Shown in pieces: positions 18,956-19,936 of a stretch of DNA of 35,268 bases. Under the pieces are notes generated by a model. The model was not told where the DNA came from, searched no databases, and was given only the letters and a program-made list of their open reading frames with translations. The stretch's first letter is position 1. Every line of letters starts with the position of its first letter. Position numbers and translations under genes: made by a program. Source of the DNA: a virus; UHGV virus genome UHGV-0140091; one strand, 5' to 3'.

Positions 18956-19735
18956 TCAGCTTATGAATTTGAACTTTTTAGAATACAGCAAGTAGTGAAC
19001 TTCATCCTGATTTGTTGTGTAGATGTATGCTGCTGGGTAGTTATCAAAGAATACCCCTTCGTATCTACCAAACGGGTCAACTGAGAACATTTCACTGTTA
19101 CACATACCCATCTCACTAACCAGAGGGTAACTAACCTCGACCTTACCTTCAACAAGTTGATAGAGGGTAACATGGTTAGACTTACCGTCACTGAGAACAA
19201 CACCATCATAGAATTGTGGTGCTGAGGTGGCATACTTAGGGGTAACTACAGTTGCCATTGCTTCATCATAGACGTATAGGTACACATCAACGTTGTACAT
19301 AATGCTATTAATGAGGCTTTTCACGGCTTGTGCATCTAACCCACCGATACCTGCCCCAATCATGGGTAAACCAATCTTACGAATGTTGTACATCCAGCAA
19401 AACTTACGGAGTTTTTCTAGTGACTCCACTAAGTATCGGTATGATGCACACTTTCCAACATCCAACTGTGTATATAGGTTAAAAATGTAACCATACTCTG
19501 TTCGAGCATGTGACACCTCACCAATCATCTGGTATCCTATATCGTGAGCATTGTAGCCAAACTTCTTATGGAATTTCCTGTCAGCTTCTTCAGCTTTTGG
19601 GAAAATCTTAGCAATTTTTTGAGCGATTCCAGCACCCATGAGGTTACGACAGTTGCAACCATGAGCAATTAACTCGATATCTGTGTTTTTGAAGGCAGCC
19701 AGTAAGTTACCTTTCACAACTTTTACAATACCCAT
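18956..19735 (-). CDS. macrodomain protein (TARG1/OARD1-like, DarG-like ADP-ribose hydrolase fold) with ~110-aa C-terminal extension
   Basis: 259 aa. N-terminal LIAHGCNCRNLMGAGIAQKIAKIFP and central IGLPMIGAGIGGLD resemble the TARG1-type macrodomain motifs as I recall them (not aligned). Confidence 0.65.
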   Translation of the reverse strand: MGIVKVVKGNLLAAFKNTDIELIAHGCNCRNLMGAGIAQKIAKIFPKAEEADRKFHKKFGYNAHDIGYQMIGEVSHARTEYGYIFNLYTQLDVGKCASYRYLVESLEKLRKFCWMYNIRKIGLPMIGAGIGGLDAQAVKSLINSIMYNVDVYLYVYDEAMATVVTPKYATSAPQFYDGVVLSDGKSNHVTLYQLVEGKVEVSYPLVSEMGMCNSEMFSVDPFGRYEGVFFDNYPAAYIYTTNQDEVHYLLYSKKFKFIS

Positions 19736-19936
19736 TTAACATCTCTCCCAAGACTCTTTATCTTCTGAAGGTTTTACACGCTGTCCTTCGTGGTCTACCC
19801 AGATGCACCCACAACCTTCACAGATTACTGGCATTGCGTAGCCAGCTTTAAAGTCATCCTCAGTGATAAGACCTTTTAAGTCACCTGTATCACGTCCAAA
19901 CATTTCTATAGAACAGTCTTTGCAGAAGTCAGCCAT
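19736..19936 (-). CDS. small cysteine-rich protein (putative zinc ribbon)
   Basis: 66 aa with CKDC...CEGCGC; stop abuts the macrodomain gene start. Confidence 0.55.
   Translation of the reverse strand: MADFCKDCSIEMFGRDTGDLKGLITEDDFKAGYAMPVICEGCGCIWVDHEGQRVKPSEDKESWERC

What the first reader, a model, noticed from the sequence alone, without database searches (positions are those of the whole stretch)
18956..19936. TARG1/DarG-like macrodomain gene coupled to a small zinc-ribbon gene
The 259-aa protein carries macrodomain motifs of the TARG1/OARD1/DarG type (HGCNC...MGAGIA and PMIGAGIGGLD) plus a ~110-aa C-terminal region of unknown function. A 66-aa CxxC...CxGC protein ends one base before its start. 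Macrodomains of this type remove ADP-ribose from protein, DNA or RNA, so a phage copy is a plausible counter to ADP-ribosylating defence toxins. Its position near the NAD module suggests a themed counter-defence region.
Basis: partly seen in the sequence, partly recalled or inferred. Interest (0 to 1): 0.75.

Follow-up and report, generated by a model that had tools for sequence, protein, structure and literature searches.

The report
Phage AdfM-like macrodomain with orphan tail domain
This Felix O1-type phage gene encodes an ADP-ribose-removing enzyme related to phage T4's newly described anti-DarT factor, so it most likely strips a bacterial defence mark off phage DNA; its extra, fast-evolving tail domain is undescribed, and the neighbouring zinc-ribbon gene looks like a neighbour rather than a partner.

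Summary
Both ORFs exist on the minus strand (259 aa, 18956-19735; 66 aa, 19736-19936). The stop codon abuts the next ATG, and the quoted motifs are present. The window is a Felixounavirus genome.

Residues 1-157 are a genuine macrodomain of the TARG1/DarG/Poa1p class by sequence and by predicted fold. The closest relative with a tested function is T4 Tk.4 (AdfM; 33% identity, E 1e-22), a reported anti-DarTG2 factor. The TARG1/DarG catalytic lysine is an invariant glutamine here (NLYTQ), as in T4 Tk.4 and in SCO6735, which still cleaves thymidine-linked ADP-ribose.

Two features appear undescribed:
- **C-terminal domain (residues 176-259).** It is confidently folded, beta-rich, and has no detectable sequence or structural relatives outside this family.
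- **Allele replacement.** The gene body has been swapped (about 40% protein identity to Felix O1) inside flanks that are 91-94% identical.

The zinc-ribbon coupling is not supported. That gene is near-invariant, is never fused to a macrodomain, and occurs in T5, Vequintavirus and Pseudomonas phages without an adjacent macrodomain gene. The NAD genes lie 7.5 kb away.

Verdict: a new variant of a known kind, of moderate interest.

The parts
18956..19735 (-). Two-domain macrodomain gene (259 aa), a homologue of T4 tk.4/adfM with a C-terminal extension
   Evidence: ORF. PHROG 335 E 1.5e-84. Annotated 'phosphatase', 'Macro domain, Poa1p_like' or 'O-acetyl-ADP-ribose deacetylase' in related Felixounavirus records.
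19265..19735 (-). Macrodomain, residues 1-157. ADP-ribose-binding loops are N28, M33-G-A-G-I-A38 and P124-x-I-G-A-G-I-G-G132. Q90 in NLYTQ sits at the position of the TARG1/DarG catalytic lysine.
   Evidence: Pfam PF01661. PADLOC and NCBIfam DarG profiles match the macro part only. Foldseek top hits are TARG1, DarG and Poa1p.
19211..19264 (-). Linker, residues 158-175: a short helix followed by a lower-confidence segment
   Evidence: AF2 model: helix 158-164, mean pLDDT 66 for residues 161-170.
18959..19210 (-). Orphan beta-rich C-terminal domain, residues 176-259: six strands and one helix, with a conserved P173-x4-G178 lead-in
19736..19936 (-). 66-aa CxxC...CxxC zinc-ribbon gene (PHROG 2210, homologue of T5.062). 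It is the upstream neighbour in the same transcription unit and is probably not a dedicated partner.
19743..19749 (-). Shine-Dalgarno sequence (GGGAGAG) of the macro gene, inside the 3' end of the zinc-ribbon ORF
   Evidence: Read directly from the sequence.
18870..18925 (-). Intrinsic terminator closing the transcription unit: a 13-bp GC-rich stem followed by a U-run, 30 nt after the macro stop codon
   Evidence: RNA fold -27.4 kcal/mol, z -5.2, 0 of 200 shuffles as stable.

Best explanation
The 259-aa protein is a phage-encoded 'orphan antitoxin'. It is an ADP-ribosyl glycohydrolase of the TARG1/DarG (ALC1-like) macrodomain class and a homologue of T4 AdfM (Tk.4). It is transcribed as the last gene of a leftward early/middle operon. 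During infection it most likely removes ADP-ribose that DarT2-type toxins attach to thymidine in single-stranded phage DNA, which restores replication.

Catalysis probably follows the SCO6735-type lysine-independent route. The invariant Gln90 would position the distal ribose, and a water molecule would be the nucleophile, rather than the TARG1 Lys/Asp dyad.

The C-terminal 85-aa beta domain is specific to this lineage and evolves fast. It is inferred to be a specificity or interaction module, for example binding the toxin or a replisome/ssDNA-associated target.

Shown here: the ORFs, the macrodomain fold, the class, the conserved ligand-binding residues, homology to T4 AdfM, the orphan status of the C-domain, and the allele replacement. 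Inferred: the substrate, the mechanism, and the role of the C-domain.
For: - Fold and class: Pfam Macro; AF2 model pLDDT 86, pTM 0.85; best Foldseek hits TARG1 4j5r, TaqDarG 5m31/5m3e, Poa1p 6lfr, MtbDarG 5m3i and SCO6735 5e3b. DarG profiles give E 1.9e-16 (PADLOC) and 1.9e-15 (NCBIfam).
- Closest relative with a tested function: T4 Tk.4, 33% identity over residues 3-160, E 1e-22, sharing AHGCNC, MG(A/S)G(I/V)A, FNLYTQ and P-x-IGAGIG. Tk.4/AdfM knockout sensitises T4 to DarTG2. A more distant chimallivirus AdfM removes DarT2 marks from DNA in vitro (PMC13309987).
- The Gln in place of the catalytic Lys is compatible with activity. SCO6735 has Gln85 at the position of TARG1 K84/DarG K80, cleaves thymidine-linked ADP-ribose, and loses activity in the Q85A mutant (PMC9411070).
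- The ligand-binding residues N28, G34, G36, P124, G127, G129, G132 and Q90 are invariant in 21 homologues.
- Arms-race signature: DNA flanks are 91-94% identical to Felix O1, but the gene body from 19593 to 18802 is not alignable. Protein identity is about 40% overall, about 50% in the macrodomain and 20-28% in the C-domain.
- The gene is present in essentially all Felixounavirus records (257 full-length tblastn hits).
Against: - No biochemical or genetic data exist for any Felixounavirus copy.
- The T4 result is from a preprint and is genetic only.
- The catalytic Lys of DarG and of PhiKZ AdfM is absent here, and identity to PhiKZ AdfM is only 23%.
- Macrodomains of this class are promiscuous. 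TARG1 acts on protein Glu/Asp, on nucleic-acid phosphate ends and on O-acetyl-ADP-ribose (OAADPR), so the substrate cannot be read from sequence.
- The C-domain has no analogue in T4 AdfM and could redirect the enzyme to another substrate. Its charge is not conserved (pI 4.7-10.1), which argues against a conserved DNA-mimic or DNA-binding role.
Confidence: 0.55

Rival explanations
1. It is an ADP-ribosyl hydrolase aimed at a different defence toxin or substrate. Candidates are ADP-ribosylated RNA (CmdT-type mRNA modification, phosphate-end or tRNA modification) or ADP-ribosylated phage or host proteins. The C-terminal domain would supply the alternative targeting.
For: Class members act on several substrates: TARG1 on RNA/DNA phosphate ends and on proteins (PMC11833690), and SCO6735 on protein as well as DNA. 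The extra C-domain is absent from T4 AdfM. A PNKP-like HAD gene, a candidate RNA-repair gene, lies about 2 kb upstream in the window and in three divergent relatives.
Against: The only tested close homologue scores specifically with DarTG2. SCO6735, the Gln-type enzyme, was inactive on 2'-OH RNA ADP-ribosylation and, in the results section of the same paper, on 5'-phosphate marks. The PNKP synteny may only reflect conserved gene order.
Confidence: 0.2
2. It is a small-molecule enzyme rather than a macromolecule de-modifier. It could be an ADP-ribose-1''-phosphate phosphatase (Poa1p-like) or an O-acetyl-ADP-ribose (OAADPR) deacetylase, or it could degrade ADP-ribose-derived immune signals such as Thoeris cyclic ADP-ribose isomers (gcADPR). 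It might cooperate with the phage NAD salvage genes.
For: Database annotations read 'phosphatase', 'Poa1p_like' or 'O-acetyl-ADP-ribose deacetylase'. The N-terminal 60 residues match Poa1p (E 3e-5; fold hit 6lfr). NAMPT and PRPP synthetase are encoded in the same leftward gene block.
Against: The Poa1p match is much weaker than the DarG and TARG1 matches and covers only the N-terminus. The NAD genes are 7.5 kb away, in separate transcription units behind terminators. The annotations are transferred names, not tests. Rapid allele turnover fits a protein or toxin interface better than a fixed metabolite.
Confidence: 0.12
3. The zinc-ribbon protein and the macrodomain protein form a dedicated two-component unit. 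The ribbon would act as a nucleic-acid-binding or toxin-binding subunit.
For: The stop codon and ATG abut, and both genes share one transcription unit in all Felixounaviruses. In the divergent relative L008, an unrelated 63-aa CPKC...CNEC protein occupies the same abutting position.
Against: The ribbon is 95-100% identical in more than 200 records while the macrodomain protein is only about 40% identical between allele classes. It occurs without an adjacent macro gene in T5, Vequintavirus and PaMx35. It is separated by three genes in L009 and absent in L011. No fusion exists among its homologues. T5 carries the ribbon yet is described as DarTG2-sensitive.
Confidence: 0.08
4. It is a non-catalytic ADP-ribose binder, either a reader or a sponge, that has lost hydrolase activity because the catalytic Lys and Asp are missing.
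For: K84 and D125 of TARG1 are replaced by Q90 and G131. One record annotates it as a 'high-affinity ADP-ribose binding module'.
Against: The same Gln is essential for catalysis in SCO6735 and is present in T4 AdfM. Strict invariance of NLYTQ and N28 suggests a conserved active site.
Confidence: 0.05

Closest known systems
T4 Tk.4 = AdfM (anti-DarT factor, macrodomain; bioRxiv 10.1101/2025.11.20.689424)
   Same: A phage-encoded stand-alone macrodomain with 33% identity over the whole macrodomain (E 1e-22). It shares AHGCNC, MGxGxA, FNLYTQ (Gln rather than Lys) and PxIGAGIG. The similarity was already noted in the 2003 Felix O1 annotation ('protein in tk-vs intergenic region').
   Different: T4 AdfM is 155 aa with no C-terminal domain. 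The window protein adds a linker and an 85-aa orphan beta domain. It also shows deep allele replacement within its genus.
DarG antitoxin of DarTG2 (TaqDarG 5M31/5M3E, MtbDarG 5M3I)
   Same: Same macrodomain class: profile E about 1e-15 to 1e-16, and Foldseek E 1.8e-8 with target-normalised TM-score 0.73-0.77. N28 corresponds to DarG N22 by position (inference).
Streptomyces coelicolor SCO6735 (5E3B; PMC9411070)
   Same: A TARG1-like macrodomain with Gln at the catalytic-lysine position that still hydrolyses thymidine-linked ADP-ribose on DNA. It is the best mechanistic precedent.
   Different: Only a weak sequence match (E 9e-4 to 5e-3). It is a bacterial, DNA-damage-induced, single-domain protein.
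Human TARG1/OARD1 (4J5R) and yeast Poa1p (6LFR)
   Same: The best solved-structure matches by sequence and fold. The HxCNC N-terminal motif resembles that of Poa1p.
   Different: The TARG1 K84/D125 dyad is absent (Q90/G131). Poa1p similarity is limited to the N-terminal 60 residues by sequence.
Chimallivirus AdfM (PhiKZ gp104; PMC13309987)
   Same: A phage macrodomain shown to remove DarT2 marks from DNA, so it has the same proposed role.
   Different: Only 23% identity, E 7e-4. It retains the catalytic Lys (K78), is imported into the phage nucleus, and is a single-domain protein.

Membership tests
Macrodomain superfamily (Pfam PF01661) | Sequence match above the gathering threshold | tested here: met
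   28 bits against a cut-off of 22; residues 25-140 cover profile positions 2-116 of 118.
Macrodomain superfamily (Pfam PF01661) | Three-layer alpha/beta/alpha macro fold | tested here: met
   AF2 pLDDT 86. 217 PDB macrodomain matches at E <= 1e-3. Target-normalised TM-score 0.73-0.79 to TARG1 and DarG.
Macrodomain superfamily (Pfam PF01661) | Conserved ADP-ribose phosphate-binding loops (GxG and P-x-IG-x-G) | tested here: met
   MGAGIA (33-38) and PMIGAGIGG (124-132) are invariant or nearly invariant in 21 homologues.
TARG1/OARD1 | Catalytic Lys84/Asp125 dyad | tested here: not met
   Single-sequence and profile alignments place Q90 at K84 and G131 at D125.
DarG (DarTG2 antitoxin) | Catalytic Lys80 in the macrodomain | tested here: not met
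   Gln90 sits at the equivalent position. The equivalence K84 = K80 = SCO6735 Q85 is taken from PMC9411070.
DarG (DarTG2 antitoxin) | C-terminal DarT-binding (ssDNA-mimic) domain | tested here: not met
DarG (DarTG2 antitoxin) | Encoded next to a darT toxin gene | tested here: not met
   The neighbours are small phage genes and a terminator.
DarG (DarTG2 antitoxin) | NCBIfam equivalog score | tested here: not met
   57 bits against a curated cut-off of 250.
Phage AdfM (T4 Tk.4 type) | Homology to Tk.4 across the macrodomain, with shared active-site motifs | tested here: met
   33% identity, E 1e-22. NLYTQ, HGCNC and IGAGIG are shared.
Phage AdfM (T4 Tk.4 type) | Phage-encoded orphan gene with no cognate toxin | tested here: met
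   Felixounavirus genome context.
Phage AdfM (T4 Tk.4 type) | [quoted passage not shown] | not testable with these tools
   This needs a phage knockout with a DarTG2 plating assay, and an in vitro assay.
Poa1p-like ADP-ribose-1''-phosphate phosphatase | Full-length similarity to Poa1p | tested here: inconclusive
   The sequence match covers only residues 4-62 (E 3e-5). The fold match to 6lfr is no better than the matches to TARG1 and DarG.

The most novel reading that the evidence does not exclude
The lineage-specific C-terminal beta domain is a new, rapidly diversifying toxin-recognition module. This would make the protein a two-pronged antitoxin mimic: the macrodomain erases the ADP-ribose mark while the C-domain binds and blocks, or senses, particular DarT-like or other ART toxins. 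This would be functionally analogous to the DarG C-terminal domain but structurally unrelated to it. The deeply divergent allele classes circulating in otherwise 92%-identical Felixounaviruses would then correspond to different host toxin variants.
Probability: 0.2. Interest if true: 0.65.

Novelty: new variant of a known kind. Interest (0 to 1): 0.42.

Why it matters
Felix O1-type phages are used for Salmonella and E. coli typing, biocontrol and therapy. DarTG and other ADP-ribosylating defences occur in their hosts.

If this near-universal Felixounavirus gene is an AdfM-type factor, three things follow:
- It extends a counter-defence first reported in 2025-2026 to a new phage subfamily.
- It gives a second natural example, after SCO6735, of the lysine-free Gln-type catalytic centre.
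- It provides a ready-made natural allele series (macrodomain about 50% identical, C-domain about 20-28%) for asking what sets toxin or substrate specificity.

The orphan C-domain is a small, confidently folded module with no known relatives. It is a reasonable target for structure determination and interaction screens.

Tried and rejected
2. **P0035 (114 aa) as a possible stand-alone C-domain.** Rejected. It begins inside the last macrodomain strand (MHNVDVYLYVYD...), so it is a truncated gene call.
3. **Zinc-ribbon partnership.** Rejected on synteny, evolutionary rate and lack of fusions.
4. **A phage self-regulating its own ADP-ribosyltransferases, as in T4 Alt/Mod.** No ART is annotated in the early/replication half of a close relative. 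The second half of that genome was not inspected.
5. **Rfam scan of the window.** It found only tRNAs and nothing at this locus.
6. **Literature on Felixounavirus macrodomains or DarTG.** Nothing relevant was found. The DarTG phage-defence paper (PMC9250638) was not held.
7. **Interdomain geometry.** This could not be examined because model coordinates and PAE are not exposed.

Full report
**1. What is in the sequence**

The window is part of a Felixounavirus (Felix O1-like myovirus) genome. The 2-kb region around the finding is 93-97% identical to Escherichia and Salmonella phages such as ECML-1, BPS17L1, pSJ21 and VpaE1_ev035.

On the minus strand there is a 259-aa ORF (18956..19735) and a 66-aa ORF (19736..19936).
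- The TAA of the small ORF abuts the ATG of the large one.
- A GGGAGAG ribosome-binding site lies 7-13 nt upstream of that ATG.
- Thirty nucleotides after the large ORF there is a strong hairpin followed by a U-run (-27.4 kcal/mol, z = -5.2). The macro gene is therefore the last gene of a leftward polycistronic unit that begins near the spanin genes.

**2. The N-terminal 157 residues are a macrodomain of the TARG1/DarG class**

- Pfam Macro is passed (28 bits against a cut-off of 22).
- The best solved-structure matches by sequence are TARG1/OARD1 (E 1.6e-7 with one sequence, 7.5e-13 with a family profile), T. aquaticus and M. tuberculosis DarG, Poa1p and SCO6735.
- DarG profiles from PADLOC and NCBIfam match at E about 1e-16 and 1e-15, but only over their macro part. 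The NCBIfam score is far below the equivalog cut-off (57 against 250 bits).
- An AlphaFold2 model built on 21 homologues is confident (pLDDT 86.4, pTM 0.85).
- Foldseek against the PDB again ranks TARG1, DarG and Poa1p first, with target-normalised TM-scores of 0.73-0.79.

**3. Active site**

The ADP-ribose-binding elements are invariant or nearly so across the family: N28, MGAGIA 33-38 and PMIGAGIGG 124-132.

The residues that define TARG1 catalysis are not present. K84 aligns with Q90 of an invariant NLYTQ motif, and D125 aligns with G131. K84 is equivalent to DarG K80 and to Gln85 of Streptomyces SCO6735. SCO6735 nevertheless hydrolyses thymidine-linked ADP-ribose on DNA and is inactivated by Q85A (PMC9411070). 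The phage protein therefore has the SCO6735-type, lysine-free centre rather than the TARG1 or DarG one.

**4. Closest relative with a tested function**

tblastn shows the macrodomain in about 2,800 phage records. In T4-like phages it lies next to vs. This is T4 tk.4, which is 33% identical over residues 3-160 (E 1e-22) and shares AHGCNC, MGxGxA, FNLYTQ and PxIGAGIG.
- A 2025 preprint reports that tk.4 is the single T4 gene needed on DarTG2-expressing hosts and names it adfM.
- A 2026 paper shows that a more distant chimallivirus macrodomain, PhiKZ gp104, removes DarT2 marks from DNA. It is only 23% identical to the window protein.
- No paper in the library deals with the Felixounavirus protein.
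- Existing genome annotations call it 'phosphatase', 'Poa1p_like macro domain' or 'O-acetyl-ADP-ribose deacetylase'. The 2003 Felix O1 record already noted its likeness to the T4 tk-vs region protein.

**5. The C-terminal domain**

After a linker (158-175), residues 176-259 form a six-stranded beta domain with one helix. It is predicted with pLDDT about 90 both in the full-length model and alone. No relative was found:
- no Pfam or PADLOC match;
- BFVD returns only a Felix O1-type family member;
- a profile search of 1.84 billion cluster representatives returns only five or six clusters, all of this family (two are truncated gene calls), plus weak multi-stretch matches to long proteins; the two inspected (P0041, P0044) carry repeated beta-strand motifs, so these matches are judged spurious.

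The domain is always fused to this macrodomain and is confined to Felix O1-like phages and a few related metagenomic phages. It is not the DarG C-terminal DarT-binding domain.

It evolves much faster than the macrodomain:
- Window allele against Felix O1-type alleles: 20-28% identity in the C-domain, about 50% in the macrodomain.
- Among Felix O1-type alleles: 45-73% in the C-domain, 74-90% in the macrodomain, excluding the near-identical pair P0007/P0008 (96%/90%).
- Its net charge is not conserved (pI 4.7-10.1).

**6. Allele replacement**

Against Felix O1, the flanking DNA is 91-94% identical. Identity falls to 84% over the zinc-ribbon gene and the first 140 nt of the macro gene. It then disappears until 18802 in the downstream spacer, apart from one 113-nt stretch at 72%.

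Only 13 phage records carry the window-type allele at 90% identity or more. About 245 carry alleles around 40% identical. No closer relative exists among 5.8 billion proteins. This pattern of a near-universal gene with deep allele classes inside conserved flanks is typical of loci under host-driven diversification. That reading is an inference.

**7. The zinc-ribbon gene**

The 66-aa protein (PHROG 2210) has two CxxC knuckles and no Pfam family.
- It is 95-100% identical in more than 200 records, whereas the macrodomain protein is only about 40% identical between allele classes.
- It is 65-77% identical in T5-like phages and Vequintaviruses, and 55% in Pseudomonas phage PaMx35. In those phages its neighbours are tRNAs and an HNH endonuclease, a tail-fibre gene, or nucleases. 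None has an adjacent macrodomain gene.
- Among more distant phages that do have the two-domain macro protein, L009 has the ribbon three genes upstream. L008 has an unrelated CPKC...CNEC mini-protein in the abutting position. L011 has neither.
- All detectable homologues are 36-92 aa, so no fusions exist.
- T5 carries the ribbon yet is described as DarTG2-sensitive.

The adjacency is therefore best read as operon packing. A genus-specific partnership cannot be fully excluded.

**8. The NAD module**

NAMPT (27239-29020) and PRPP synthetase (29066-29962) are real. They lie 7.5-11 kb away. rIIA, rIIB, a Vs.1-like SLT protein, a PNKP-like protein, spanins and at least two terminators lie in between. 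The whole leftward arm is a general early and nucleotide-metabolism block. 'Themed counter-defence region' is not a testable claim from position alone.

**9. Conclusion**

The most likely function is an AdfM-type ADP-ribosyl glycohydrolase that reverses DarT2-type DNA ADP-ribosylation through a Gln-type active site. It is extended by a lineage-specific, fast-evolving domain of unknown role, possibly toxin or target recognition.

Confidence is about 0.55 for the specific substrate. It is higher, about 0.75-0.8, for 'active ADP-ribose hydrolase used in counter-defence'. The rivals are other ADP-ribosylated substrates, ADP-ribose metabolites or immune signals, a non-catalytic binder, and a true ribbon-macro pair.

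The finding is a new variant of a known kind. The enzyme family and its anti-defence role are now known. The two-domain architecture, the orphan domain and the allele turnover are not described.

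Noticed in passing
window 18470-18955 (spacer between the macro gene and the next leftward gene): An unusually long 490-bp spacer with no convincing ORF. It holds three copies of a roughly 26-nt motif (CTGCACAATTCTAAAATGATTTTTCT) at 18739, 18784 and 18859, spaced 45 and 75 nt apart. Next to them is a G-rich tract on the + strand (about 18675-18712; polypyrimidine CCCCTCTCCCCCTCTTACTCCCCCTCTCCC on the - strand). The stretch 18572-18802 is 94% identical in Felix O1 although the adjacent macro gene body is not. It could be operator or iteron-like sites or a small RNA. 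Rfam finds nothing there.
   Followed up: partly
window 13200-18600: Each small leftward gene is preceded by a copy of a repeated 45-85-nt intergenic cassette: a GC hairpin (GGGGCTTA...TAAGCCCC or GGGAGG...CCTCCC), a promoter-like TTGAC...TAAT box, and a conserved leader ending ...CCTAAACTAGGAGATTC(T/A)AAAATG. There are 4-7 copies per family, and the same cassettes recur in Felix O1. These look like modular monocistronic early units. The macro gene, by contrast, sits in a polycistronic block.
   Followed up: partly
L008 2810-3001; L008 2467-2823; L011 2379-2687: In a divergent relative (L008), a non-homologous 63-aa zinc-ribbon protein (CPKC...CNEC) abuts the macro gene where the window has its own ribbon. 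L008 and L011 also carry a small gene just upstream whose product looks like an all-alpha MazG-type NTP pyrophosphohydrolase (by eye, not tested). The window lacks that gene at this position.
   Followed up: partly
window 21788-23010; L008 182-1361; L009 1-652; L011 57-1227; T4 L003 4923-6272: A Vs.1-like (weak SLT) gene and a PNKP-like HAD gene lie about 2-3 kb upstream of the macro gene in the window. The PNKP-like gene recurs upstream in three divergent relatives (L008, L009, L011), and the SLT-like hit recurs in L008. T4 has the order vs.1 - vs - tk.4. This is possibly ancient microsynteny between Ounavirinae and T4-like phages. The window's 215-aa 'polynucleotide kinase' gave no Pfam hit at E <= 0.01.
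   Followed up: no
window 27239-29962: A 593-aa NAMPT (NAPRTase plus NAMPT_N domains) and a 298-aa PRPP synthetase sit side by side. This is an NAD salvage module of the kind linked to NAD-depletion counter-defence. A 'NAD synthetase' and a MazG-like gene are annotated further left in the relative BPS17L1.
   Followed up: partly
window 329-1681: A cluster of nine tRNA genes on the minus strand: Ile, Met, Lys, Asp, Tyr, Asn, Met, Glu and Pro.
   Followed up: no
window 18084-18467: The 127-aa gene (PHROG 4495) immediately downstream of the macro locus has no counterpart at the equivalent place in Felix O1: the alignment jumps from L007 5203 to 5501. The macro gene therefore borders a second variable slot.
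   Followed up: no
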